Assembly: GCA_046299555.1 (NCBI GenBank)
Contig: JBKBHS010000001.1
Location: 928,009 to 992,008, forward strand
Direction: 5' to 3'
DNA from: Bacteroidia bacterium
GTDB taxonomy: Bacteria; Bacteroidota; Bacteroidia; JACCXN01
Length of the DNA: 64,000 bases
A program made the position numbers and the translations under genes. Of the stretch, positions 1,141-30,858 are shown one piece after another; positions within the stretch are counted from its first letter, which is position 1, and each line of letters opens with the position of its first letter. The notes under the pieces are model-generated. The model searched no databases. It was not told the origin of the DNA and saw nothing but the letters and a program-made list of their open reading frames with translations.

Positions 1141-1262
1141 TTGAATGTGTTAATGTGTTAAAGTTTTTAAATTAGTTGAAATTCATTGAGATTAGTTAAG
1201 ATTGATTGAAATTAGTTGTGATTTATTATAACCCATTGATTCATTTACACATTTACAAATTT
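1141..1262. repeat. dispersed intergenic repeat copy A (gtgttaa / gagatt-gattgattgaaatt / tgattcatttacacatttaca modules)
   Basis: Shares motifs with 25779-25968, 26205-26346, 28470-28585, 29290-29462 and 32462-32575 (inverted). Confidence 0.6.
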
Positions 1263-3796: not shown

Positions 3797-4663
3797 TTAA
3801 AGCGTAAAAGTTTTTTTAAATATTAATTGGCTGCTATCTTCAAAAATTAAAATTTGATATTCTCCTTTGGGCCATCCTTTAATATTTAAATTTACATGAT
3901 ACGAGTAATTTCCCGGACCTTCTGATGAATTTTTTACTAAAGCATTCATAATTCTTCCATTTTTATCTCTAACTTGTATAGAAGTAATTCCGTTATTTTT
4001 CTTAATGTAATTAATGTCTCCTTTAAGCAAATAGTGTTTTCCGCTAAATAATGACGAAGTATCTTTTAAATAATAAATGTTATACCAAGGTAATTCAATG
4101 CCTTTAATTTCTGCCAAAGTTTTTCTTAGTTCATATACATCATCCATTTTATCAGAATGAACTGAAGCAATTTCATGATTGTTGCTCAAGACCCAAATAG
4201 CATGCTGTATAGCGTCAATTGGAAAATTATTTTTATTGATTACTTCAGCTAATTTAATCCATTCTGGCGGAGCCATTTTACCAACAGAAAAATTAATATC
4301 TTTTTGAGGAGAGCGATCGGTGCTTTCACAACAAAAAGCAAAAGCATCGTTAGTTTTTGTTTCATTAGGAGTGAGTGTAATTAATTGCTCTTTAACGATT
4401 AATAAATCTTGCATGGAGCTATCGCTGCACATAAGTCTTCTGCCATATTCTAAATGAAGTATGATTGCTTCGTTTGAAATATTTTTACTTACAATACTGG
4501 CAGAATTTCCTTTGTGTTCACCTTTACCTTTTATTTCGAGTATGATTTTATTTTTTCGAAATGCTTCTTCAATTGAAATAATTGGAGATTTAAGATGTGC
4601 ATGTGTTTTAATATACAACACGATACTTATTACTAACAGAAAATAAAATTTCACTGAAATCAT
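3797..4663 (-). CDS. hypothetical secreted protein (ORF extends to 4747; likely start MISVKF... at 4663)
   Basis: ORF with signal-peptide-like N-terminus from the internal Met; no recognisable domain. Confidence 0.5.
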   Translation of the reverse strand: MISVKFYFLLVISIVLYIKTHAHLKSPIISIEEAFRKNKIILEIKGKGEHKGNSASIVSKNISNEAIILHLEYGRRLMCSDSSMQDLLIVKEQLITLTPNETKTNDAFAFCCESTDRSPQKDINFSVGKMAPPEWIKLAEVINKNNFPIDAIQHAIWVLSNNHEIASVHSDKMDDVYELRKTLAEIKGIELPWYNIYYLKDTSSLFSGKHYLLKGDINYIKKNNGITSIQVRDKNGRIMNALVKNSSEGPGNYSYHVNLNIKGWPKGEYQILIFEDSSQLIFKKTFTL

Positions 4664-10704: not shown

Positions 10705-13700
10705 TTAATCTCCTACAACAGTTACAGGGCCATTTTTTACAACATCTTCTCCGTATTCGTTTTTATATTTTATGATATAATAGTAGGTGCCCGGTGCAAC
10801 TTTTTTACCATTAAAAGTACCATCCCATCCATCTGTTCCTTGATATAGTTGCTGTCCCCAACGATTAACGATAGTTAGGTCAATTCCTTTTAAAAACACA
10901 TCGTTTACTCCATCGCCATTAGGTGTAAATGCATTAGCAACAGGAATTACACGGATTACCAGCGAATCGTTTACTTCGCTCTTACATTCTCCTTCTGTAA
11001 CAATTACGTATACAACATATCCATCTTTTAGAGCTGATGTTTGGTAAATATTGCTACTGCCACTTTGAACGCTATTATTGTTTAAAAAGAATTCATAATT
11101 ATCATATCCACTTGGAGATGCGGTAAATGTTACAAGTTGGTTACTATATATGGTATTATTTATAGCATCCGAAGTTAATGTTACAACAGGCAAGGGATTT
11201 ACAATTACCGTAACCGGTATTCTTCCACCGCTGTTTATACATCCTTCAGTACTTTCTGATTCAATATAATATGTTGTAGTAGCAAATAATGCTCCGGTAT
11301 TATAAGTAGTTCCGGTGTATAATAAAACTCCTCCTGTTGCTGCGTTCCACCAATTTATTTGTGCTCCTGTAGTTGATGTGGATGCAGTTAATATGGTACT
11401 GTCTCCGGCACAGATTTCAGTATCTCCTGCAACCAGTGAAGGAGCATTTGGTAATGGATTTACAACTATTGTAACAGGAGTTCTACCACTTAAAGATGTA
11501 CATCCAAATTGATTTGATGTTTCAACATAGATTGTAGTGGTAGTTAATGCTGTAAATGAATAAGGGTTATTGCTTAATAAATTACCACCTATTGGAGCAT
11601 CATAAAATGAATATGTAACGTTTCCACCGGTAGAACCACTTGCTGTTATTGTAACATTTGTACCAAAGCAAACGGTATCACCACTTGTTGTAATTGTAGG
11701 AGGTGTTGGATTTGGTGCAACAACTATGGTTACAGGAGTTCTTGAAGTATCACTTAAACAACCGCTCGTATTGCTTACTTCTAAATAATAGGTGGTTGTT
11801 GAGGTAGGTGATACTGTTAATGGAGAATTTCCTAAAAAGTTTCCTCCGCTTGGGCTATCATAAAAAGTATAAATTATTGTTCCACCCGTAGAGCCGCTTG
11901 CTGTAATAATTGTTGATTCTCCTACACATATTGTATCATCGCTAACTGAAATAGTTGCAGGAGTTGGTGTTGGATTTACAACGATATCTACCGGAATTCT
12001 TCCTGAAGGCAATGAACATCCATCACTATTAATAACTTCTAAATAATAAGTTGTGCTCGTAGTTGGAGAAACACTCAGAGGAGAATTTCCTAAAAAATTT
12101 CCTCCGGTTAATGCGTCATAAAAGTTATAACTTATATTTCCTCCAGTTGAGCCACTTGCAGTTATGAGTGTACTGTCACCGGAACAAATGGTATCATTAC
12201 TTACAGTAATAGTTGGAGTAGTTGGTGTTGGATTAACCGTTATAGTAACAGGTTGGCGACCTCCTGTAGCAAGACACCCGCTTGTTGTGCTTACTTCCAA
12301 ATAATAAGTTGTAGTAGAAGAAGGACTTACTGTTAAAGGAGAATTTCCTAAAAAGTTTCCTCCAGTAGCTGCATCATAAAAACTATAAACAATACTTCCC
12401 CCAGTAGAACCACTGGCTGTTATTGTTGTGCTGTCTCCAGCACATATTGTATCATTTGTAGTTGTAATAGTGGCCGATGTTGGAGTGGTATTTACAGTAA
12501 TCGTATAAGGTTGTCTTCCTCCATTAGCTAAGCAACCTGAAGTATTACTTACTTCTAGATAATAGGTGGTGGTACTAGTTGGAGATACTGTTAAAGGTGA
12601 ATTTCCTAAAAAGTTTCCTCCTGTTAATGCATCATAAAATGAATAAATAATTGTTCCACCACTAGATCCGCTTGCAGTTAGCGTGGTACTTTGACCTGAA
12701 CAAATAGTGTCATTAGTTGCTGAAATTATGGCTGCTGTTGGAGTTGGATTAACAGTTATGGTTATTGGAATTCTTCCTCCTAAAGCAACACAACTATCAC
12801 TATTTATTGTTTCGATATAATAAGTTGTAGTATTGGTTGGTGATACTGTTAAAGGTGCTGATCCTAAAAAGTTACCTGCTGTAGCTGCATCATATACATT
12901 GTATATAATTCCACTTCCTCCGCTTGAACCACTTGCATTTATAGTAGTAGATTGTCCTGCACAAATAGTATTATTTGTAGCACTTACAGTAGGTGAAGTT
13001 GGAGTTGGATTTACTGATACATTCGTATAGGCAGTATCCTTACAACCGTTAGCGGCTGTTCCAATTACGCTGTATGTGGTATTGGTTGTAGGTGAGATAT
13101 TTATACTCGATGATGTTGATGAATTACTCCAAATGTAACTTGATGCTCCACTTGCTATTAGGGTAGTACTGTATCCATTGCAAACACTTACCGGATTCCC
13201 GGAATTAATTTGTACGGTTGGATTTGGTTTTACATAAATTGTTTTTGTTAAAGTTTGTTTTTTACCGCACACACCTTCTGCTAATAATACATATGTTGTT
13301 GTTGTGCTAGGAGTAACTGTTATGTTTTGCGTTGTTTGTCCACCTGGTGACCATAAATAGCTTGTCGCTCCGGCAGGACCATTTAAAACTACAGAATCGC
13401 CAAAACAAATAGAATCATTTGCAGAAGTTATTGCAGGAAATTGTATTCCTCCTGTTGCTTGTATACTATAATTACATATATCTCCTGCAAAACCATCAAT
13501 TAATAAGTAATAATCCTGACCGATTGTTAAATTATTTGCAGTAATGGTTAAAGTTGATGAACCTTCTCTAAAATCAGAAACCGGAGCAAATCCACAGCAG
13601 GGAGAGCTGGCTGTAAATATTTGCATTTGAATACCTCCTGAAGGATAATTACCTACCCAGCAATCGGTAATATTTACAGTTAATGTTATAGTTGTATTGG

Positions 13701-16494: not shown

Positions 16495-16579
16495 CAGCCC
16501 TCAAACAAAGAAATCAACAACGTTCATTTGAAAAGTTTGAGAATGAAAAATAAATAAATAAAATTTTTTTCATAAAAAG

Positions 16580-16610
16580 TTTGCAGATTTAAAAACTGTA
16601 TGTACCTTTG
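16580..16610 (+). promoter_or_regulatory. rRNA operon promoter P2
   Basis: TTTG -N19- TACCTTTG; part of a ~100-bp repeat unit (aaaagtttgcagatttaaaaa...tacctttgcagcccctta). Confidence 0.65.
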
Positions 16611-16679
16611 CAGCCCCTTAAAAATGAATGTAGAGAAATAGAGGTTTAAAAACGAAGAGAAAAATATTTTAAAAAAAAG

Positions 16680-16710
16680 TTTGCAGATTTAAAAAAGGTG
16701 TTTACCTTTG
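16680..16710 (+). promoter_or_regulatory. rRNA operon promoter P3
   Basis: TTTG -N19- TACCTTTG; near-identical repeat of P2. Confidence 0.65.
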
Positions 16711-16784
16711 CAGCCCCTTAAAAATGATTAAGGGATTAAAACTTGAAAAGTAAATCGAAACAAAAAATATTTTTTTAAAAAATA

Positions 16785-16815
16785 TTTGCAGATTTAAAAA
16801 AGGTGTTTACCTTTG
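16785..16815 (+). promoter_or_regulatory. rRNA operon promoter P4
   Basis: TTTG -N19- TACCTTTG; near-identical repeat of P2/P3. Confidence 0.65.
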
Positions 16816-16990
16816 CAGCCCCTTAAAAATGATTCCTTAAAAATGATTAAGGGTTTAAAAAGTAAATTAAAACATTTTATTATATTATTAAGTTCTTTGA
16901 AAGATTTTATTGAAGAGGTAAAGGTAGCGTAATTGAATGATCACACCCCGTGATCAATGAGCCAACTCCAAATATTTTAAAATTTTTTAC

Positions 16991-22023: not shown

Positions 22024-23907
22024 ATGAGATTCTTTTTAAGTTTTATAATTATACCTTTTGTATTTCACTCTTTCTCTTTTGCATCTCATCAATTTTCTTT
22101 AAAAATTGTAAATATTAATTCTGACTCAGTCAAAGTTTCATATCCATTATATTATTCTTTTTATTTTTCTTTTTCTGACTCTACTAATTATAATATTTGG
22201 AATGATAGTTCTTTAACTTTTATACATCGTTATGCATTTCATAAATATGGTTTAGAATGGCATAATGGCAATATTGGGCTTTCTAGAAATTCAATATTTT
22301 ACACCTATACAAAACCTGATTTTGGTTTTCAAGTAGGATTAAATGGTTTTGAAAATTATTTTTTTTCTTCAGAACCATTTAAAATTTTTCAAACCAGAAG
22401 ACCATATACTGAAATTTCTGTTGTATTAGGTTCTAATAAAGAACAAATTGCACGTTTATTACATACTCAAAATGTTAATGAGCGCTGGAATATTGCTTTT
22501 AGAATGAATAGAACGACATCTGAAGGTTTTTATTCGAGACAAAATGCGAATTTTAATTCCATACAATTACAATCTAATTATACTTCGAGAAATAAAAGAT
22601 ATGCGGCTATTTTTCAATCCAATTTTAATCGAGCTAATGCTTTTGAAAATGGAGGAGTAATTGATTCTGTTGATGTGCTTAATTCGGAGGAATTTTTAAA
22701 TGCACGTGGTATTCCAATTAATTTAAACGATGCGCGCAGACGAACTTCTGAAAATTCTGTTTGGATTAAGCAGTATTTTAATATAATTCATAAAGATTCT
22801 GTTTTAACAAATGATTCATTGTTTGAACATCGTTATTTTGTTAAAGCCGGATTGTCCAATATATCAGGTGTTTCAGGAAGGTATAGTTGGTTTAAGGACG
22901 AGGAAGCTGCTTTAGGTTTTTATTCTAACTTCAGAGATTCTATAACAAATGATTCGATAAACAAATTTAGTTTATATGATGAATTTCGTGCGCATGTTTA
23001 TTTTAATGATTTTGAGTTAAATGGTGGTATAAAATATGAATGGAATAAACTTAGTATGATTAATTACGATACTTTAGCTCAAAATTTAATTACTGTAAGT
23101 AGTTTGAACTGGCAAAATAAAAAAGGTAGTAATTTAGGTATAGACGCAAATTATGTTATTGCCGGATTTAATAGAAATGACTTTCGATTAAGAGCTTTTT
23201 TAAATTATAAGTTTTCAGAAGAATGGTTCCTAAATATTAATTATTTATCAGATTACAGAACACCTACTTTGCAGAGTTTGCGATGGGTTTCCAATAATTT
23301 TGAATGGAATAATTCTTTTAAGAAGGAATTATACAATGGAGGTTCTGCTTATTTAATTAATACAGACAGAGAATTTAAAGTAGGTGGAGGAATTCATTAT
23401 TTAACAAATCCTGTTTTTTACGATTTTGTTGCCCGACCAAAGCAATCCGATGGTAGTTCACAAATTGTACAAGCTTTAGCTGAAAAAACTTTTCAGGTTG
23501 GCAAGTTTTATTTAACCAACACTTTTGCATATCAGAAATCTTCTGCTGACTCCATTTTCAGAGTGCCGGAAATTATTTCTAAAAATGCTTTTTTCTTTCA
23601 GACAGATTTATTTAAACGTGCTATGAGAATTCAGTTGGGTGTTGATTTCTATTACTTTACATCCTTTACTCCTTATGCTTATATGGCAGCAAGTAATGTG
23701 TATTATCTTCAAAATAATCGATTAAGTGGTAATTATCCTTTCTTTGATGTTTTTCTAAATTTTAAAGTTAAAACATTAAGAGGTTTTATTATGCTGGATC
23801 ATGCTAATCAGGGGTTAATTGGAAATAATCAATATTATTTTATGCCGGGATATCCTTTTCCGGGAAGAACTGTAAAGCTTGGTTTAACTTGGGTGTTTAA
23901 GGATTAG
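22024..23907 (+). CDS. hypothetical outer-membrane beta-barrel protein (putative porin-like)
   Basis: 627 aa; N-terminal hydrophobic signal; rich in Y/F/N/S alternating strands; C-terminal ...LGLTWVFKD. Confidence 0.55.
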   Translation: MRFFLSFIIIPFVFHSFSFASHQFSLKIVNINSDSVKVSYPLYYSFYFSFSDSTNYNIWNDSSLTFIHRYAFHKYGLEWHNGNIGLSRNSIFYTYTKPDFGFQVGLNGFENYFFSSEPFKIFQTRRPYTEISVVLGSNKEQIARLLHTQNVNERWNIAFRMNRTTSEGFYSRQNANFNSIQLQSNYTSRNKRYAAIFQSNFNRANAFENGGVIDSVDVLNSEEFLNARGIPINLNDARRRTSENSVWIKQYFNIIHKDSVLTNDSLFEHRYFVKAGLSNISGVSGRYSWFKDEEAALGFYSNFRDSITNDSINKFSLYDEFRAHVYFNDFELNGGIKYEWNKLSMINYDTLAQNLITVSSLNWQNKKGSNLGIDANYVIAGFNRNDFRLRAFLNYKFSEEWFLNINYLSDYRTPTLQSLRWVSNNFEWNNSFKKELYNGGSAYLINTDREFKVGGGIHYLTNPVFYDFVARPKQSDGSSQIVQALAEKTFQVGKFYLTNTFAYQKSSADSIFRVPEIISKNAFFFQTDLFKRAMRIQLGVDFYYFTSFTPYAYMAASNVYYLQNNRLSGNYPFFDVFLNFKVKTLRGFIMLDHANQGLIGNNQYYFMPGYPFPGRTVKLGLTWVFKD

Positions 23908-23914
23908 TCAAAAT

Positions 23915-23990
23915 TCATAAGTCGTAAGTTCTAAGTCGTAAGTCATAAGTTAGAGGACAGAAGTCAGAAGTCAGAAAACAGAAACAGGAA
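23915..23990. repeat. imperfect heptamer-like tandem repeats (taagtcg/a; agaagtc)
   Basis: cataagtcgtaagttctaagtcgtaagtcataagt... acagaagtcagaagtcagaaaacagaaacagg. Confidence 0.6.
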
Positions 23991-25068: not shown

Positions 25069-25111
25069 AAATCAAAGGTAAGAATAGTTATTTTTGTATA
25101 AAAAAATAACC

Positions 25112-25777
25112 ATGTCTAAAACAGCTTTAATTGCGGGAGCCAGTGGCTTGGTGGGTTCGTATTGTTTAGAATATTTATTACAATCAAAAATACACGATAA
25201 AGTAATTTGTATTACCCGAAAAACCTTGCCTAATCAATCGCCATATTTGCAGCAGATAATAGCCGATGCCAACAATCTTGCTGAAACGTTAAGCGAACTA
25301 AAAGCTGATGATGTGTATTGTTGTATTGGTACCACTATTAACAAAGCGGGTACCCAGGAGGCGTTTAAACAAGTAGATTATACTTATGTGAAAGTGTTGG
25401 CCGAGCAATTAAAAAATAATGGTGCAACATCGTTTGCCGTTGTTTCTTCTATTGGTGCTGATGCAAAATCTTCTAACTTTTATTTGCGCATCAAAGGCGA
25501 AATGGAAAATGCCGTAAAAGCATGCAATTATACAAAAACTATTATTTTGCGACCATCCATGCTTTTAGGACCACGAAAAGAATTCAGGATGGGTGAGGCA
25601 ATAGGTAAAGTGTTTATGACTACTTTTTCATTTTTGTTTGTTGGCAAGCTTAAGCGTTACAAAGCCATTGAAGCCACTCAAGTAGCCAAAGCTTTAATAC
25701 ATTTTACGCAAGAAGATTTTAAAGGGCTAAAAGTTGTTGAGAATGAAGAGTTGTTAGAATTGAAAATTGTAAATTGA
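25112..25777 (+). CDS. NAD(P)H-binding oxidoreductase (atypical SDR/epimerase-like)
   Basis: N-terminal Rossmann motif LIAGASGLVGSY; ORF-track start at 25094 is a TTG, ATG at 25112 preferred. Confidence 0.7.
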   Translation: MSKTALIAGASGLVGSYCLEYLLQSKIHDKVICITRKTLPNQSPYLQQIIADANNLAETLSELKADDVYCCIGTTINKAGTQEAFKQVDYTYVKVLAEQLKNNGATSFAVVSSIGADAKSSNFYLRIKGEMENAVKACNYTKTIILRPSMLLGPRKEFRMGEAIGKVFMTTFSFLFVGKLKRYKAIEATQVAKALIHFTQEDFKGLKVVENEELLELKIVN

Positions 25778-25778
25778 A

Positions 25779-25968
25779 GATTACAAATTGCAGATTAGAA
25801 GATTAGAAGATTAGAAATTGAGATTGATAGAAACTAATTGAAATTAGTGGAGATTAATTGAAGAATTTCGTTAGAATGTATTAACGTTTTAACGTGTTAA
25901 AGTGTGAAAGTTGAAATGTATGGAAATTGGTTGAAACTTATTGAGATTTATTGTTTTGAATGTATACA
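25779..25968. repeat. dispersed intergenic repeat copy B1 ((agaagatt)n stutter + gagattgatagaaa/gattaattgaa + gtgttaaagt modules)
   Basis: ttgagattgatagaaactaattgaaattagtggagattaattgaag...gttagaatgtattaacg...gtgttaaagtg shared with copies A/C/D. Confidence 0.6.
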
Positions 25969-26204
25969 AATATCAAATCTTTCGAATAAAACGAATAATG
26001 AAATTTTTAATTCATAAATAATAAATAAATACACCTCGTCATTGTTCTTTTATCTTTTAGTTTGTCTTCTATTATCTGGCAACTGTAAACTGTTAACTGT
26101 CTTCTTTTATTAAACCACAGAGAACGCAAAGAATTACGCAGAGCGCCACAGAGAAATTTTTTTTATCACCCGTCCTTATTCTTTTTACTGATGGCATATT
26201 GCTT

Positions 26205-26346
26205 TAATTGCACATTGACTCATTTACACATTTATTAATAGCCAACTGCCAACTGCTAACTGCCCACTACCCACTAACGACTTACACCTGACTACTTATA
26301 CCTAAAAAACTAATGGCTAATGGCTTTTAACTAAATAACTAAAAAA
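26205..26346. repeat. dispersed intergenic repeat copy B2 (tcatttacacattta module + (gccaact)n stutter + ctaatggctaatggct...actaaataactaaaaaa module)
   Basis: 3' 40 bp nearly identical to 29427-29466; 5' module matches 1236-1256 and 29358-29380. Confidence 0.6.
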
Positions 26347-26463
26347 GCAACCTTTTTTTGCTAATACGTTGTATATGAGTAGAAAATTATTTTATTAAAT
26401 CGACCAATAGCTTTCTAAATTAGATTAAAACCTATAAAGTGCCACTAAAAACTTGTATTTCAA

Positions 26464-26494
26464 TTTGTTAAATTAATAAGATGTTATATATTTG
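26464..26494 (+). promoter_or_regulatory. promoter for the small secreted protein / T9SS cargo operon
   Basis: TTTG -N19- TATATTTG (Bacteroidetes -33/-7 consensus) ending ~23 bp before ATG at 26517. Confidence 0.5.
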
Positions 26495-26516
26495 TTAATT
26501 GAAAAATTTTAGATTC

Positions 26517-26804
26517 ATGAAAAAATATTTCTTAGTATTCGCATTGTTAATCATATCAGGAACTTTAGTTTTTGGACAAAGTAATTCTGATTGCGATTCA
26601 ACCAAATGGGCAAAAGAAGGAACATATCTTGTTAAAATAGTTGAAGGTACTGTAGAGTCTACTGATGTAAGGCCTAGGGAACTAACAAGTGATGAAAAGT
26701 GCTTTATAGAACAAAATAGACATCTTACAAATGATGTTATTTTTAGATTTGATTTATATACAGAAGTGATTATCTATTCAAAAAATAAAATCTCGGAGAA
26801 ATGA
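26517..26804 (+). CDS. small secreted hypothetical protein (95 aa), translationally coupled to downstream T9SS cargo gene
   Basis: ATG at 26517 gives MKKYFLVFALLIISGTLVFGQ signal peptide; stop overlaps next start (ATGA at 26801-26804). Confidence 0.55.
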   Translation: MKKYFLVFALLIISGTLVFGQSNSDCDSTKWAKEGTYLVKIVEGTVESTDVRPRELTSDEKCFIEQNRHLTNDVIFRFDLYTEVIIYSKNKISEK

Positions 26805-28336
26805 GAAAATTATATTTATTTACGTTTTTTACAATCTTGCTAGTTGGAAATACATATGCGCAGCCTGCAAATGATGCTTGTGCAAGTGCAACAGCATTAA
26901 CTGTTAATGGCTCTTTACTTTGTGGTCAAACAACAAATAATGCAACTACACAAACAGGAGAAGCTTGTGCAGCATCTGGAGGTGGAGTCACACCTAGAAC
27001 AGTATGGTACTCATTTACTGCAACAAGTTCTTCTATGATTTTAAATTACTTAAGAACGAATACGTCAAATTGTATAACACGATTAAGCATTTACGGACCA
27101 AATCCAACCTGTGTTCCCGGTGCCGGAGCTCAGTTATCAGGATTTGCCTGTATTGATGTATATACAGGAGATCCAGGAAAATATTTAACAATGTCTGGTT
27201 TAGTTGTTGGCGCCACTTATCTAATTCAAGTTAATGGGCAAGATTGTGGAGGTGGAAACGATAGATTTCATAATTTTTGTATAGGTGTTTATACTCCAAA
27301 TACAAATAATTCTGTATCTGCTCCATCTGTTATAACGGAATGTGGTACAACATATAATGGCTCAACACAAGGTGGGTATTCTCCCTCAGGAACTGGAGTG
27401 GGTTTTAGGAATTTAGACGGTAATAATAGTACTACTTGTCCTTCTTGTGCTACAGCAGGTGACGATGTTACTTTTGTTATAAATAACGATTCTTGGTTTT
27501 CATTTTGTACAGTTAATGCGGGTACTTGGCAAGTAACTTTTAGTGTTGGCACATGCGTATTCTCTGGAATAAATAGTGGTGCTCAAATGGCATTATTTAC
27601 TGGTAGCCCAACAGCGTTAACTTGGCATTCACAAGCTACAAATCCAACTTATGCAGGAGGATCGTGGACCTCTCCTACTATTACTTTAGCTGCTGGTGGA
27701 TGTGCATATATGGTTGTGGATGGATTTGCAGGTGATGCATGTACTTATTCTTATACAGTAACCAATCTTTCTGGTGGTTGTATTTTATTACCTATTGAAT
27801 TATTATCATTTAACTACACTAAAGAAGGAAACAATGTAAATATTCAATGGAAAACAGCCACAGAAACTAATAATGACTTCTTTACGTTAGAAAAATCAAG
27901 CGATGGAATTAATTATGAATTTTTCCAAAACATTAAAGGGGCAGGTAATTCTAATATGCCAATAGAGTATAAAACCAAAGATACTAATCCTTTTGAAGGT
28001 GTAACCTATTATCGCTTAAAACAAACGGATTATGATGGTAATTTTGAATATGTAGGAACAATTGCAGTTAAAACAAATAAAGCTGTTGAGAATATTGCAG
28101 TAATTCCCAACCCTGTTTTAAATAATGCAGAAATAAATTTCAATTCCAATTTAAATGGAGTTTCTCGCATTCAAATAATTGATATTACAGGTAAGCAAGT
28201 TTATACAGAAAGTATAAATACTAATGAAGGCCCAAACCGTTTTGTATTAAATACAGAAAATTATAATAAAGGGCTTTACTTCTTGGTTATCTCTAACGAA
28301 TTCGGTACTGAAAAATTAAAGTTTGTAAAAGAGTAA
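26801..28336 (+). CDS. secreted protein with two PPC-like domains and a T9SS type-A C-terminal sorting domain
   Basis: 511 aa; signal peptide; N-terminal domain resembles the PPC-like domains of the 1528-aa adhesin (ANDACASATAL...TVWYSFTA); C-terminal IAVIPNPVLNNAEINF...KGLYFLVISNEFGTEKLKFVKE Por secretion tail. Confidence 0.8.
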   Translation: MRKLYLFTFFTILLVGNTYAQPANDACASATALTVNGSLLCGQTTNNATTQTGEACAASGGGVTPRTVWYSFTATSSSMILNYLRTNTSNCITRLSIYGPNPTCVPGAGAQLSGFACIDVYTGDPGKYLTMSGLVVGATYLIQVNGQDCGGGNDRFHNFCIGVYTPNTNNSVSAPSVITECGTTYNGSTQGGYSPSGTGVGFRNLDGNNSTTCPSCATAGDDVTFVINNDSWFSFCTVNAGTWQVTFSVGTCVFSGINSGAQMALFTGSPTALTWHSQATNPTYAGGSWTSPTITLAAGGCAYMVVDGFAGDACTYSYTVTNLSGGCILLPIELLSFNYTKEGNNVNIQWKTATETNNDFFTLEKSSDGINYEFFQNIKGAGNSNMPIEYKTKDTNPFEGVTYYRLKQTDYDGNFEYVGTIAVKTNKAVENIAVIPNPVLNNAEINFNSNLNGVSRIQIIDITGKQVYTESINTNEGPNRFVLNTENYNKGLYFLVISNEFGTEKLKFVKE

Positions 28337-28357
28337 TCTGAGTAAATATTAAAAAAA

Positions 28358-28393
28358 TTAAGCCTGCCCTAGTGGTGGGCTTTTTTGTTTTTT
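28358..28393 (+). terminator. probable rho-independent terminator
   Basis: Weak stem aagcc...ggctt / gccc...gggc followed by ttttttgtttttt. Confidence 0.4.
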
Positions 28394-28469
28394 AGGAGTT
28401 AGGGAATAGGTGTTAGTAGTAAGTCTTAAGTTATTAGTCGCTAGGCATAAGGAGTAAGTGAAGTGGTTG

Positions 28470-28585
28470 GTGTGTGTTAAAGTTAGAACGTTAGAATGTG
28501 TTAATGTTTGAGATTAATAGAAACTCTTTGAGATTGATAGAAATTAGAGATTAATTGAAATTCTTAGAGATTGAAATAGGATATA
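28470..28585. repeat. dispersed intergenic repeat copy C
   Basis: gttagaatgtgttaatgtttgagattaatagaaactctttgagattgatagaaattagagattaattgaaattcttagagattgaaatagg; preceded by word-like stutter aggagttagggaataggtgttagtagtaagt... Confidence 0.6.
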
Positions 28586-28703
28586 TTTGTTTCAGATTAA
28601 AAGTAATTTTTTGACTTGTATTAGTAAAATAGAATTAATCCTGAATTTCAAGACAAGCAATGTTGGAATAGCTGGGGTTTTTGATGAATTCAATTATTTC
28701 TTC

Positions 28704-28979
28704 TTAGTGGGAAAGAATAATTTCTGCTAGCATGCTGGTTGATTTATTTCCTGTTCTTAGCCAAACTATTTTAGGGGGTATCCCATAAAGGTTAGATTAA
28801 TCGAAAAAATCCGCATCAAAGGTAACTATTGTGTAGTTATGATCTTTTGCAAATTTCCAAATCTGAATGTCTGTATTGTTCTCAATTCCAAGAGTTCTTA
28901 CTTGAGCAGCAAGTGGAAAATAATCCCTAATTTTTTCTACTATTCTAAAAGAAATATTTTGATCAAATAATAGTCTCAT
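28704..28979 (-). pseudogene. DUF5615 (PIN-like) toxin gene interrupted by in-frame TAA after codon 60
   Basis: 60-aa ORF MRLLFDQNISFRIVEKIRDY...TIVTFDADFFD stops at 28797-28799; same frame continues SNLYGIPPKIVWLRTGNKSTSMLAEIILSH to a stop at 28704-28706, matching the usual C-terminal half of DUF5615 proteins. Confidence 0.55.
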
Positions 28980-29203
28980 TAAGCTACTCGTAAACGGTTT
29001 TCACGGTCAGCAGCATAGGCTAAACAGGCTTGAATATCCTCTTCTGTAAGTTCCGGATAATCCAATAAGATTTCCTTTGTAGTCATTCCGGAAGCTAAAT
29101 AGCTTAAAATATCGTACTCTGAAATACGAGTATTTCTAATACATGGTTTTCCGAAGCGTTTTTCGGGGTTTATTTTAATTATAATAGAATAATCTTTCAT
29201 CAT
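28979..29203 (-). CDS. DUF433 domain protein (antitoxin-like partner of DUF5615)
   Basis: 74 aa; ...RFGKPCIRNTRISEYDILSYLASGMTTKEIL.DYPELTEEDIQACLAYA typical of DUF433; 1-nt overlap with downstream DUF5615 ORF. Confidence 0.75.
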   Translation of the reverse strand: MMKDYSIIIKINPEKRFGKPCIRNTRISEYDILSYLASGMTTKEILLDYPELTEEDIQACLAYAADRENRLRVA

Positions 29204-29289
29204 GTTGTATTGCCAAAATTTATCATTATTTAGCTAACTCAAATTTTAGCAAAAAAATATGAATGTTAAATTTTAAAGTAAATATTTAA

Positions 29290-29462
29290 AGCGTTTGAAT
29301 TAATAATAGAGACTAATTGAAACTCATAGCGATTGATAGAAATTAAAGATTAATTGTGATTCATTTACATATTTACACATTTTCACATTCTCAAATTGGC
29401 AAATCATCAAATTCTCAAATCAATATAACTAATGGCTAATGGCTTATTACTAAATAACTAAA
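29290..29462. repeat. dispersed intergenic repeat copy D (all three modules contiguous)
   Basis: gagactaattgaaactcatagcgattgatagaaattaaagattaattgtgattcatttacatatttacacatttt + caaattctcaaat stutter + aactaatggctaatggcttattactaaataactaaaaaaa. Confidence 0.65.
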
Positions 29463-29481
29463 AAAATCACTACCTTTCCCT

Positions 29482-30858
29482 GTGCAAAAAAATGATCCTA
29501 AAATTATTCGCGCATGGGCTATGTACGACTGGGCAAACTCAGTGTATCCGCTCGTAATTACTTCTACTATTTTTCCCATTTATTATACCGCTGTTACCAC
29601 ACATCAGGGTTCTGATATGGTGCAGTTTTTAGGAATGAATTTTAAGAATACCGCACTATATACCTATGCCATGGCATTTGCTTATTTATTGATTGCAGCT
29701 GTTGCTCCATTGCTTTCAGGTATTGCCGACTATGGCGGTAAGAAAAAAGGATTTATGATGTTTTTCTGCTATGTTGGTGCTATAGCTTGTTCTGCAATGG
29801 CTTTATTTACAGGACCTGAAAATTTATGGATAGGAATATTAACCATTGTTTTGGCTTGTATAGGATATTCGGGAAGTATTGTATTTTACAATGCCTATTT
29901 GCCGGAAATAGCTACACCCGATATGCAAGATAGAGTAAGTGCCAAAGGCTATTCACTGGGTTATATAGGAGGAGCAATTCTTTTAATTTTAAATTTAGTA
30001 TTGATATTAATGCCCGATTTATTTTATGATGTAGCAGGAAGAATAAACGAATTAAAGCTTGTTGAAACAACTCTTACAGATGATGAAGCCCGTGAAAAAG
30101 TGCTTTCATCTTTATCGGGTATATCCTCGCGCATTTCATTTTTTACTACCGGCATTTGGTGGATTTTATTTGCGCATTACAGTTTTTACTATTTGCCCAA
30201 AAATGTATTTAATCGCAAGCCAGAAGGAAATATATTGTTTAAAGGTTATCTGGAATTGATAAAAGTGTGGCAGGAGTTAAAATCAAACCCTACTTTAAAA
30301 AAATATCTGAGTGCATTTTTTAGCTATAATATGGGCGTGCAAACAGTAATGCTGGTAGCTACACTTTTTGGCAGTAAAGAATTGCAATTGGAATCAGGCG
30401 AATTAATAATGACCATATTAATTATTCAGTTTGTAGCTATAGGCGGTGCTTATTTGTTTTCGGGTTTATCGGGCAAATATGGCAATATTTACATTTTACG
30501 CGTTGCTACCTTGCTGTGGATAGGTATTTGTTTTATGGCCTACTTTGTTACATCAGCAGTGCAGTTTTATGTTTTAGCATTTTTTGTAGGATTGGTAATG
30601 GGAGGCATACAATCTTTATCGCGCTCTACCTATTCTAAACTTTTGCCCGAAACTATTGACCATGCCTCTTATTTTAGTTTTTATGATATTTGCGAAAAAT
30701 TGGGAATAGTGCTTGGAATGGGGCTTTTTGGAATTATAGAAGAAGTATCAGACAGTATGCGAAATTCTGTGATAGCTTTATTTCTGTTTTTCCTGATAGG
30801 TTTCTTACTTTTGTTGCGGATAAATAATAAATTGACCATCCAACAATCAAAACACTAA
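29482..30858 (+). CDS. MFS transporter, UMF1/Atg22-like family
   Basis: 458 aa; 12 predicted TM helices; N-terminal AWAMYDWANSVY motif typical of UMF1 family; start codon GTG at 29482 (alternative ATG at Met14). Confidence 0.7.
   Translation: MQKNDPKIIRAWAMYDWANSVYPLVITSTIFPIYYTAVTTHQGSDMVQFLGMNFKNTALYTYAMAFAYLLIAAVAPLLSGIADYGGKKKGFMMFFCYVGAIACSAMALFTGPENLWIGILTIVLACIGYSGSIVFYNAYLPEIATPDMQDRVSAKGYSLGYIGGAILLILNLVLILMPDLFYDVAGRINELKLVETTLTDDEAREKVLSSLSGISSRISFFTTGIWWILFAHYSFYYLPKNVFNRKPEGNILFKGYLELIKVWQELKSNPTLKKYLSAFFSYNMGVQTVMLVATLFGSKELQLESGELIMTILIIQFVAIGGAYLFSGLSGKYGNIYILRVATLLWIGICFMAYFVTSAVQFYVLAFFVGLVMGGIQSLSRSTYSKLLPETIDHASYFSFYDICEKLGIVLGMGLFGIIEEVSDSMRNSVIALFLFFLIGFLLLLRINNKLTIQQSKH

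What the first reader, a model, noticed from the sequence alone, without database searches (positions are those of the whole stretch)
28440..29462. TA-like DUF433/DUF5615 cassette bracketed by two same-orientation copies of the intergenic repeat
Copy C (28470-28585) and copy D (29290-29462) of the repeat family flank the two-gene cassette 28704-29203 in direct orientation. Flanking by related repeats is what one expects for a cassette mobilised by, or inserted into, a repeat element. It also creates direct repeats that could delete the cassette by recombination.
Basis: inference. Interest (0 to 1): 0.55.

Follow-up and report, generated by a model that had tools for sequence, protein, structure and literature searches.

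The report
Decaying toxin-antitoxin cassette inside intergenic repeat
A small toxin-antitoxin gene pair whose toxin gene is already broken sits in the middle of one lineage-specific intergenic repeat element. Close relatives have a different toxin-antitoxin pair or nothing at the same spot, so the repeat acts as a recurrent landing site for small accessory cassettes.

Summary
The cassette is real: an intact DUF433 antitoxin gene (28979-29203, minus strand) and a DUF5615 PIN-like toxin pseudogene (28635-28979) with two in-frame TAA codons.

The flanking direct repeat is real but short, and C and D are not two copies of an element.
- It covers 63 nt (28501-28563 and 29300-29362), far above chance (0 of 500 shuffles).
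- C and D are the two halves of one composite element: a G/T-rich arm, a roughly 10-bp-periodic GAGATTAATWGAAA array, then a C/A-rich arm.
- Only the central array is duplicated. Removing 28564-29362 restores an element collinear with the intact copy at 1144-1262.

Relatives were found through the adjacent MFS gene.
- One at 95% amino-acid identity lacks the cassette.
- One at 93% carries an unrelated MntA/HepT pair in the same bracket, with its own 73-nt array duplication.
- In each strain the two flanking arrays are each other's closest relatives, so the insertions were independent.

No recombinase gene is in the window, and the closest DUF433 cassettes in other hosts lack these arrays.

Verdict: insertion into a repeat element is supported. 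The mechanism, array-mediated recombination, is inferred. This is a new variant of a known kind and of moderate interest.

The parts
28360..28392 (+). Intrinsic-terminator-like hairpin plus T run that ends the upstream T9SS-sorted protein gene (26801-28336). The repeat element starts right after it.
   Evidence: 9-bp stem with 5 GC pairs, then TTTTTGTTTTT
28393..28500 (+). Left, G/T-rich arm of the composite repeat, made of degenerate 7-8-nt units such as AATGTGTT and GTTAAAG (G 32%, C 4%).
   Evidence: Collinear with the left flank of the L096 cassette (window 28443-28561 vs L096 7-138, 72% over 133 nt, E=1e-14) and with the left arm of the intact element at 1144-1161.
28501..28563 (+). Left copy of the duplicated central array, built of roughly 10-bp-periodic units (GAGATTAATA GAAACTCTTT GAGATTGATA GAAATTA GAGATTAATT GAAATTC). 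Degenerate units continue to about 28575.
28576..28634 (.). Non-repeat spacer between the left array and the 3' end of the toxin pseudogene. It is part of the inserted segment.
28635..28979 (-). DUF5615 (COG4634-type, Mut7-C-group PIN-like) toxin pseudogene. It has 114 codons with in-frame TAA at codon 61 (28797-28799) and codon 92 (28704-28706).
   Evidence: The same 60-aa truncated gene call appears in all independent assemblies that cover the gene.
28979..29203 (-). Intact DUF433 (COG2442) antitoxin gene of 74 aa. Its stop overlaps the toxin start (ATGA).
   Evidence: The next-closest homologue in 5.8 billion proteins is 84% identical.
29204..29299 (-). Upstream region of the cassette, presumably promoter and operator. 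It contains a 22-nt inverted repeat (29200-29221 / 29241-29262, 82% complementary) that spans the start codon.
   Evidence: I2; promoter-like hexamers, not above chance. The function is inferred.
29300..29362 (+). Right copy of the duplicated central array, running directly into the C/A-rich arm as in intact elements.
29363..29472 (+). Right, C/A-rich arm (CATTTACA, CAAATCAT and CTAATGG units; G 5%, C 18%). It is conserved upstream of the MFS gene in relatives. Collinearity with L092 and L096 begins at 29372-29378.
29427..29465 (+). 39-nt module (CTAATGGCTAATGGCTT..ACTAAATAACTAAAAAA) repeated in direct orientation at 26308-26346 (95%). Together the two copies bracket the 3.1-kb block orf101 - T9SS protein - TA cassette.
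   Evidence: Relative L095 has the B-type arm fused to the MFS-proximal sequence.
1144..1262 (+). Uninterrupted member of the same repeat family (G/T arm, three 20-nt central units, C/A arm). It serves as the reference for the empty architecture.
25778..26498 (+). Its modules recur in the same order at a non-orthologous intergenic region of an 84% relative (L093 15609-15975).

Best explanation
What it is (shown). The genome is an uncultured Bacteroidia MAG of 34% GC. It carries a dispersed family of composite intergenic repeats with three parts: a G/T-rich arm of degenerate 7-8-nt units, a central array of roughly 10-bp-periodic GAGATTAATW/GAAAYTnnTW units, and a C/A-rich arm that mirrors the first in composition. 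The copy upstream of the MFS/ATG22-type transporter gene (29482) has been split by a 736-nt segment (28564-29299). That segment carries a type II toxin-antitoxin operon of the DUF433 (COG2442) / PIN-like DUF5615 (COG4634) kind. The 63-nt central array is present on both sides of the insert. The toxin gene has since acquired two nonsense codons, so what remains is an orphan antitoxin gene and a decaying toxin gene.

Why the site matters (shown). The same position is a recurrent docking point. A sister lineage has MntA/HepT there, with an independent duplication of its own array, and other sister lineages have no cassette.

How it most likely arose (inferred). Incoming or intragenomic DNA carrying a copy of the array recombined with the resident array. 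This could have been a Campbell-type single crossover of a circular intermediate, or an equivalent homology-assisted event. Such an event places the cargo between two direct copies of the array, and the reverse event would excise it. The same repeat vocabulary, dispersed across loci and across related species, supplies portable homology for gain, swap and loss of small cassettes without a linked recombinase.
For: - Identity of the genes. The family is a predicted TA system: PMC2701414 (COG2442/DUF433-PIN) and PMC5499597 (COG4634, Mut7-C group).
- The direct repeat is non-random.
- One element was split. The intact copy is at 1144-1262. After removing 28564-29362, the result aligns collinearly with it over about 140 nt. 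The array-to-C/A-arm junction in D matches the junctions in A, L094 and both L096 flanks.
- Presence/absence and replacement in relatives that are 86-89% identical at the nucleotide level.
- The two flanking arrays are reciprocal best partners within each strain (C-D 71; L096 left-right 111; cross-strain 47-68). This indicates separate local duplications rather than inherited left and right arrays.
- The arrays belong to the host. The closest DUF433 cassettes in other bacteria (79-84% identity) sit between unrelated housekeeping genes without these arrays. The motif occurs in 5 of 18 longer intergenic regions of the window. It is kept at orthologous intergenic positions in relatives and at a non-orthologous one in L093.
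- No integrase or transposase domain occurs in any ORF of at least 100 aa in the 64-kb window.
- The arrangement is not an assembly artefact. The same sequence appears in three independent Logan assemblies (window 28300-29500 is 100% identical in L001-L003), and a DUF433 protein identical to the window's is on record from an NCBI MAG.
Against: - No circular intermediate, no excised (single-array) allele and no donor locus was seen.
- Sixty-three nucleotides at 83% identity is marginal homology for RecA-type recombination.
- The high similarity of each flanking pair could instead come from gene conversion between neighbouring arrays after insertion.
- No relative was found in which the upstream T9SS gene is adjacent to the MFS gene. 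The best T9SS homologue is only 62% identical. The true pre-insertion state in this lineage is therefore reconstructed, not observed.
- The left ends of the L094, L095 and L096 contigs are cut inside or near the repeats.
- The cassette has host-like GC content (32-35% against 34% for the window), so the insertion is not recent and its junctions may have drifted.
Confidence: 0.65

Rival explanations
1. The repeats are ordinary gene-boundary sequences of this lineage, with a terminator-side G/T arm, a bent-DNA array and a promoter-side C/A arm. They play no part in cassette movement. Under this reading the cassettes were gained and swapped by ordinary homologous recombination in the flanking genes after DNA uptake, as in Neisseria 'minimal mobile elements'. 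Neighbouring arrays look alike because of local gene conversion.
For: - Family members occupy conserved intergenic positions without any cargo (SDR-TilS, porin-AI-2E and VitK2-EI24 regions) and evolve in place by unit gain and loss.
- The same arm/array/arm layout occurs between housekeeping genes in unrelated metagenomic organisms (pgk-eno in L115, grpE-dnaK in L104).
- The C/A arm lies just upstream of a near-consensus TAnnTTTG-like box of the MFS gene and is conserved in all relatives.
Against: - In both cassette-bearing strains the array is duplicated in register on the two sides (63 nt and 73 nt), and each pair is its own best partner. That is not expected if each side merely carries its own boundary element.
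- The arms are not duplicated.
- The left neighbour gene differs between relatives (the T9SS gene here, the AI-2E gene in L092), so flank-gene homology was not available on that side.
Confidence: 0.2
2. The arrays are attachment sites of a dedicated site-specific recombination system that acts in trans, comparable to integron attC/attI sites or Xer-dependent dif modules. The TA pairs would then be true gene cassettes of that system.
For: - Breakpoints recur at the same junction (window 29372-29378) in two relatives.
- Two unrelated TA cassettes occupy the same bracket.
- L106, from an unidentified metagenomic organism with a higher GC content (0.47), holds an array of small cassettes (23S_rRNA_IVP, DUF4160/DUF2442, DUF2281, HicB-like, DUF4258). 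They are separated by three same-orientation repeats that are 70-76% alike and contain the same core motif.
- A different 47-nt, 94% direct repeat brackets a DUF433/DUF5615 cassette in L120.
Against: - No recombinase gene is in the 64-kb window.
- The arrays are degenerate and variable in length, with no conserved core site identified.
- The two cassettes have opposite orientations relative to the arrays.
- The repeat pattern has no match in viral contigs and no Rfam or structural signal.
Confidence: 0.12
3. The cassette is ancestral at this locus. Relatives lost it by deletion between the direct repeats, so no insertion occurred in this lineage.
For: - Direct repeats of 63 nt can mediate deletion.
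- The cassette has host-like composition and a decayed toxin gene, so it is old.
- L095 suggests a repeat-bounded deletion or insertion of the larger block.
Against: - L096 carries a different TA pair at the same place with its own array duplication. This requires at least one gain or swap.
- L092 and L093 show no remnant of either cassette.
- The within-strain similarity of each flanking pair points to separate events.
Confidence: 0.08
4. The flank similarity is a chance product of low-complexity, AT-rich sequence or of misassembly.
For: Both flanks are AT-rich tandem arrays, and contigs in several assemblies break inside these repeats.
Against: - Zero of 500 dinucleotide shuffles reach the observed score (74 against a maximum of 38).
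- The match is in register across three unlike units.
- The same sequence was recovered in independent assemblies.
Confidence: 0.02

Closest known systems
DUF433 (COG2442) antitoxin / COG4634-DUF5615 PIN-like (Mut7-C group) toxin, a predicted type II TA family (Makarova et al. 2009, PMC2701414; Matelska et al. 2017, PMC5499597)
   Same: Two small adjacent genes with the DUF433 gene first and a 4-nt ATGA overlap. Domain matches are strong. Homologous pairs are scattered between unrelated genes in other Bacteroidota.
   Different: The toxin gene here has two nonsense codons, so the module is no longer a complete TA system.
E. coli folA-apaH variable intergenic region carrying ccdO157, with REP sequences (Mine et al. 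2009, as summarised in Delihas 2011, PMC3184786)
   Same: A chromosomal TA pair lies in one intergenic region that is intact, defective or empty depending on the strain, and an intergenic repeat is present at the site.
   Different: Here the site holds alternative, unrelated TA families. The repeat is a long composite low-complexity element whose centre is duplicated around each cargo.
Small variable segments flanked by direct repeats (Touzain et al. 2010, PMC2884548)
   Same: A strain-variable segment of less than 1 kb lies between conserved flanks and is bounded by direct repeats. That paper reports 10-18% of such segments flanked by repeats and proposes deletion between them.
   Different: That work concerns within-species microdiversity in cultured species. 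Here the repeat is a member of a dispersed family and the site is reused by different cargo.
Integron gene cassettes with attC sites, including TA cassettes in chromosomal integrons (own knowledge)
   Same: Small promoter-poor or self-contained cassettes, often TA pairs, are bracketed by same-orientation imperfect repeats. Different cassettes occupy equivalent slots.
   Different: There is no intI, attI or Pc nearby. The arrays lack the attC R/L box palindrome, cassette orientation is not fixed, and the site holds a single cassette rather than an array.
Neisseria minimal mobile elements (Saunders and Snyder; own knowledge, term seen in PMC8627216)
   Same: Alternative gene cassettes lie between conserved chromosomal flanks in related strains, and exchange occurs without dedicated mobility genes.
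   Different: In those elements the homology lies in the flanking genes. Here only the right flank gene is conserved, and the repeated arrays appear to provide the homology.
MITEs and composite intergenic repeats such as BIMEs/REP clusters and cyanobacterial STRR heptamer runs (Delihas 2011, PMC3184786; own knowledge for STRR)
   Same: A dispersed, intergenic, non-coding, roughly palindromic element built from short degenerate units. It is present at orthologous and non-orthologous sites in relatives.
   Different: There are no sharp terminal inverted repeats, no short target duplication and no partner transposase. The arms are mirror-composition microsatellite-like runs rather than defined termini.

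Membership tests
Type II TA, DUF433 (COG2442) / PIN-like COG4634 (DUF5615) | Antitoxin protein carries the DUF433 domain | tested here: met
   PF04255, E=1.3e-25, 89 bits against a cut-off of 23.6; covers profile positions 1-56 of 56
Type II TA, DUF433 (COG2442) / PIN-like COG4634 (DUF5615) | Adjacent, co-oriented toxin gene with the DUF5615 / PIN-like domain | tested here: met
   PF18480, E=1.7e-20 (60 aa) and E=4e-31 (read-through); ATGA overlap with the DUF433 stop
Type II TA, DUF433 (COG2442) / PIN-like COG4634 (DUF5615) | Intact toxin reading frame | tested here: not met
   In-frame TAA at codons 61 and 92. The frame is otherwise collinear with intact 114-116 aa homologues. The same truncation appears in all assemblies that cover the gene.
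Type II TA, DUF433 (COG2442) / PIN-like COG4634 (DUF5615) | Toxicity of the toxin and its neutralisation by the antitoxin | not testable with these tools
   Requires expression experiments. The family itself is only predicted to be a TA system (PMC2701414, PMC5499597).
MITE | Defined terminal inverted repeats | tested here: inconclusive
   The arms mirror each other in composition, but complementarity is weak (score 22 vs 17.0 +/- 2.5; 23 of 500 shuffles). RNA folds of intact copies are no more stable than shuffles (z between -1.2 and +0.6).
MITE | Short target-site duplication at element ends | not tested
   Element ends are diffuse, and no clean filled/empty pair for the element itself was available.
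MITE | Multiple dispersed copies, including non-orthologous sites | tested here: met
   The decamer motif occurs in 5 intergenic regions of the window: 18 matches against 5.5 +/- 2.0 expected. Modules of B recur collinearly in a non-orthologous intergenic region of L093.
Integron gene cassette | Linked intI integrase with attI and Pc | tested here: not met
   No integrase or recombinase Pfam domain in any ORF of at least 100 aa in the 64-kb window
Integron gene cassette | attC site: an imperfect palindrome with R''/L''-L'/R' boxes at the cassette's 3' end | tested here: not met
   The flanking sequence is a direct tandem array of 10-nt units with no palindromic core. No structured RNA or DNA signal.
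Integron gene cassette | Different cassettes occupy the same slot in related genomes | tested here: met
   DUF433/DUF5615 here and MntA/HepT in L096, with collinear flanks
Minimal mobile element / small variable segment | Alternative or absent gene content between conserved flanks in close relatives | tested here: met
   The right flank (C/A arm plus MFS gene) is conserved at 86-89% nucleotide identity. The left flank is conserved only as the repeat.
Minimal mobile element / small variable segment | No mobility genes within or beside the segment | tested here: met
   The insert holds only the two TA genes, and the window has no recombinase.

The most novel reading that the evidence does not exclude
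The decamer-array composite repeats may be the attachment sites of an undescribed cassette-capture system that works in trans, or a purely repeat-homology-driven one. It would shuttle TA pairs and other very small genes into and out of intergenic regions in uncultured Bacteroidia. Judging from the L106 cassette array, something similar may occur in other organisms, giving an integron-like gene-cassette economy without a linked integrase.
Probability: 0.15. Interest if true: 0.8.

Novelty: new variant of a known kind. Interest (0 to 1): 0.5.

Why it matters
Chromosomal TA modules are known to be patchily distributed, but how a two-gene cassette without mobility genes gets into a chromosome is rarely visible.

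This locus shows three states of one site: one TA family, another TA family, and a third relative with no cassette between the neighbouring genes. In each filled state the centre of a host repeat is duplicated around the cargo.

- That points to dispersed low-complexity intergenic repeats as portable homology, or possibly as attachment sites, for cassette gain, swap and loss.
- If the pattern is general, it would explain part of the small-scale accessory-gene turnover seen in MAG-only lineages.
- The locus also gives a concrete, testable junction for read-level searches.
- It documents an orphan antitoxin left behind by toxin decay.

Tried and rejected
- Genome collection (one genome per species): the best MFS match was only 64% identical. 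None of 80 loci showed upstream synteny or a DUF433/DUF5615 pair, so they were too distant for an empty-site test.
- Homologues of the upstream T9SS-sorted protein: the best non-self hit was 62% identical, so no relative with T9SS-MFS adjacency could be examined.
- Exact-protein look-ups of the window's MFS and DUF433 proteins returned only the same strain, all with the cassette. Contig breaks 46-73 nt upstream of the MFS gene fall inside k-mer repeats and are not evidence of heterogeneity.
- A long RNA hairpin formed by the arms: folds of intact elements on both strands are not better than shuffles (z from -1.2 to +0.6). Rejected as a demonstrated feature.
- A known RNA family: none reached the gathering threshold in the repeats, and only two chance-level hits appeared at E<1.
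- Phage origin of the repeat: 0 matches in viral contigs.
- The cassette carrying the repeat with it: the closest DUF433 cassettes in other hosts (L120-L126) have no such arrays. L121 and L123 have no flanking direct repeat, and L120 has an unrelated 47-nt one.
- Compositional evidence of recent transfer: cassette GC and GC3 values are host-like.
- A linked recombinase: none in the window.
- Sigma-70 promoter scan: not above chance, and Bacteroidota promoters are not covered by that tool.
- Literature searches for this repeat type or for TA cassettes inside such repeats found only general parallels.
Full report
**1. What is at the coordinates**

The interval between the T9SS-sorted protein gene (26801-28336, plus strand) and the MFS/ATG22-type transporter gene (29482-30858, plus strand) holds two small minus-strand genes.

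- The first, 28979-29203, is a 74-aa DUF433 protein (PF04255, E=1.3e-25).
- The second starts at 28979 with an ATGA overlap and matches DUF5615 (PF18480).
- The second gene is interrupted. Translation of 28620-28979 gives a 114-codon frame with TAA at codon 61 (28797-28799) and codon 92 (28704-28706).
- Apart from the stops it is collinear to the last residues with intact 114-116 aa homologues from other Bacteroidota.

The cassette therefore spans 28635-29203, not 28704-29203, and the toxin gene is a pseudogene. DUF433/COG2442 paired with PIN-like COG4634 is a predicted type II TA family (PMC2701414; PMC5499597).

**2. The repeat**

- A same-orientation repeat exists: 28501-28563 vs 29300-29362, 63 nt at 83% without gaps. 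Its core is 48 nt at 87.5%.
- The local alignment score of the whole flanks is 74 against 20.9 +/- 3.0 for dinucleotide shuffles, and 0 of 500 shuffles reach it.
- The repeat is a tandem array with an underlying period of about 10 nt: GAGATTAATA GAAACTCTTT GAGATTGATA GAAATTA GAGATTAATT GAAATTC.
- Outside it the two flanks are not direct repeats (score 12 vs 12.0 +/- 1.6).
- The left part, 28393-28500, is G/T-rich (G 32%, C 4%). The right part, 29363-29472, is C/A-rich (G 5%, C 18%). They are mirror images in composition with only weak complementarity.

An uninterrupted family member at 1144-1262 shows the full layout: AATGTGTT units, then three 20-nt central units, then CATTTACA units. Deleting 28564-29362 from the window gives a sequence collinear with that element over about 140 nt.

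**3. The family in the window and in relatives**

- The decamer motif occurs 18 times at up to 2 mismatches against 5.5 +/- 2.0 expected.
- The matches are concentrated in 5 of 18 intergenic regions of at least 70 nt.
- At conserved intergenic positions (SDR-TilS, porin-AI-2E) relatives keep an element of the same type, but with different unit numbers and sequences.
- The large copy B (25778-26498) shares several collinear modules with an intergenic region of an 84% relative at a different locus: L093 15609-15975, with segments of 80 nt at 81%, 102 nt at 72% and 33 nt at 91%.

The family is dispersed, not merely local simple sequence.

**4. Comparative test of the interpretation**

The window's strain recurs identically in several Logan assemblies, and a DUF433 protein identical to the window's is on record from an NCBI Bacteroidia MAG. 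Species-level genomes were too distant to help, at 64% amino-acid identity or less and with no synteny. Homologues of the MFS protein gave five closer relatives.

- **L092 (95% aa; about 89% nt).** Collinearity with the window stops at 25096 and resumes at 29372. The 4.3 kb between them (epimerase, repeat B, orf101, T9SS gene, TA cassette) is replaced by 283 nt.
- **L093 (84%).** An OmpA-domain gene ends 78 nt upstream of the MFS gene.
- **L094 (93%).** It has a GTTAAAG-type arm motif, one central unit and the C/A arm within 142 nt. There is no room for a cassette, but the contig is cut there.
- **L095 (95%).** The arm upstream of the MFS gene is of the B type and is fused to the MFS-proximal sequence. 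This implies an indel bounded by the 39-nt, 95% repeat shared by B and D (26308-26346 / 29427-29465).
- **L096 (93%).** A different TA pair, MntA (PF01909, E=9e-15) and HepT (PF01934, E=2e-18), sits on the plus strand in the same place.
  - Its left flank is collinear with the window's left flank (72% over 133 nt, E=1e-14).
  - Its right flank is collinear with the window's right flank (78% over 173 nt, E=4e-32; 89% from window 29378).
  - Its own central array is duplicated on both sides (73 nt at 86%).

The window has no MntA/HepT homologue.

**5. Independent duplications**

In a matrix of local alignment scores among ten arrays, C and D are reciprocal best partners (71). The two L096 arrays are reciprocal best partners (111). 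Cross-strain scores are lower (C-L096 left 68, D-L096 right 49). Truly orthologous arrays of the SDR-TilS region pair with each other (121, 76).

If left and right arrays had been inherited as such, C should pair with L096-left and D with L096-right. The pattern instead indicates that each insertion came with its own duplication of the resident array, or that neighbouring arrays are homogenised by conversion.

**6. Whose repeat is it?**

- The closest DUF433 homologues outside this strain are 79-84% identical.
- They lie between unrelated housekeeping genes in other, mostly higher-GC, organisms and have none of these arrays.
- L121 and L123 have no flanking repeat. L120 has an unrelated 47-nt, 94% direct repeat around the cassette.

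The arrays belong to the host lineage, and the cassette is a guest. Its GC content (32-35%) and GC3 (25-27%) match the host, so the event is not recent. That fits the two nonsense mutations.

**7. Mechanism**

Shown:
- insertion of about 736 nt of cargo into the centre of one element, with the 63-nt array on both sides;
- recurrence at the same junction with different cargo;
- absence in other relatives;
- no recombinase or transposase domain in any ORF of at least 100 aa of the window, which is core chromosome (rRNA operon, groEL, secA, topA, gldLMN).

Inferred:
- Recombination occurred through the array. This was either a Campbell-type crossover of a circular intermediate carrying an array copy or another homology-assisted event. 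The same repeats could drive loss.
- A duplication of 63-110 nt is too long for ordinary transposase target duplications (own knowledge). It resembles the direct repeats left by integration through shared att-like sequence.

Rivals, in order of weight:
1. boundary sequences with no role in movement, plus gene conversion;
2. a trans-acting site-specific system;
3. ancestral presence with differential loss.

None is excluded, and the confidences are given in the structured fields.

**8. Comparison with known systems and novelty**

- The gene pair is a known predicted TA family, here degraded.
- A strain-variable TA slot associated with an intergenic repeat has a precedent in E. coli folA-apaH/ccdO157 (PMC3184786).
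- Small variable segments bounded by direct repeats are documented (PMC2884548).
- The composite low-complexity element, the in-register duplication of its centre around two unrelated TA cassettes, and the reuse of one junction were not found described in the searches.

I rate this a new variant of a known kind with interest 0.5.

The more novel reading is that the arrays are attachment sites of a cassette-capture system. It gets some support from L106, an unrelated metagenomic contig in which 23S_rRNA_IVP, DUF4160/DUF2442, DUF2281, HicB-like and DUF4258 cassettes are separated by three same-orientation repeats containing the same core motif. It remains unproven (probability about 0.15).

Noticed in passing
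window 25097-29371: The whole 4.3-kb stretch (NAD-binding epimerase-like gene, repeat B, orf101, T9SS-sorted 511-aa protein, TA cassette) is missing from relative L092, which has a 95% identical MFS protein. There it is replaced by 283 unrelated bases between the AI-2E transporter and MFS genes. The variable region is much larger than the TA cassette and is subdivided by repeat-family members.
   Followed up: partly
window 26308-26346 and 29427-29465; L095 1-108: A 39-nt, 95% direct repeat (CTAATGGCTAATGGCTT..ACTAAATAACTAAAAAA) brackets the block orf101 - T9SS protein - TA cassette. Relative L095 has the B-type arm joined directly to the MFS-proximal sequence, as expected for an indel through this repeat.
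   Followed up: partly
window 25960-26200; L093 15795-15889: The centre of repeat B holds about 250 nt of non-coding sequence. It includes CCACAGAGAACGCAAAGAATTACGCAGAGCGCCACAGAG and has no ORF or Rfam match. Part of it recurs (72% over 102 nt) at a non-orthologous intergenic region of an 84% relative, so it may be a separate small dispersed element or sRNA gene.
   Followed up: partly
L106 1500-6100 (JGI contig Ga0315533_1000101; the same sequence around the repeat match recurs in L101, L103, L105 and L108): In an unrelated organism of higher GC content, an epimerase gene is followed by a run of tiny cassettes: 23S_rRNA_IVP four-helix-bundle, DUF4160/DUF2442, DUF2281, a Phd/RelE-like pair, a truncated second 23S_rRNA_IVP, HicB-like, DUF4258/DUF2283-like and HicA/HicB. 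Three same-orientation repeats separate them (2002-2102, 2704-2804, 3931-4031; 70-76% alike). Each has heptamer runs around the reverse complement of the GAGATTGATAGAAA core.
   Followed up: partly
L120 3900-3946 and 4867-4913: Another DUF433/DUF5615 cassette (82% DUF433 identity, intact 116-aa toxin) in a different metagenomic organism is bracketed by an unrelated 47-nt direct repeat at 94% identity. The repeat encloses the cassette plus about 300 nt.
   Followed up: no
L115 2190-3870: A low-GC metagenomic contig has the same arm/array/arm layout between pgk and eno: AGAGATTA x12, GAGATTGATAGAAA units, then CTAAAAT/CATAAAT runs just before the eno start. It also has odd lysine-rich low-complexity insertions (KIKNKKLK) inside pgk and gpmI whose DNA resembles the intergenic repeat units.
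   Followed up: no
window 16546-16882: A tandem repeat with a 105-nt period (3.2 copies, 72% matches) lies just upstream of the 16S rRNA gene (16989). Each unit contains TTTGCAG...TACCTTTGCAG, which resembles Bacteroidota -33/-7 promoter boxes and may represent stacked rRNA promoters.
   Followed up: no
window 23906-23987; L092 about 985-1055: The convergent porin / AI-2E intergenic region is filled with 7-nt units (AGTCATA/AGTCGTA, then AGTCAGA/AACAGAA). The orthologous region in L092 has the same unit types in different numbers, which looks like microsatellite-like turnover in place.
   Followed up: partly
window 12025-12894: A 258-nt-period repeat (about 3.4 copies, 71-72% matches) lies inside the 1528-aa minus-strand gene. 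It corresponds to tandem Ig_7 (CHU_C-associated) domains of a T9SS-secreted protein, so it is an ordinary coding repeat.
   Followed up: partly
window 29200-29262: A 22-nt inverted repeat (82% complementary, 19-nt spacer) overlaps the DUF433 start codon and upstream region. It is a plausible autoregulatory operator for the antitoxin.
   Followed up: no
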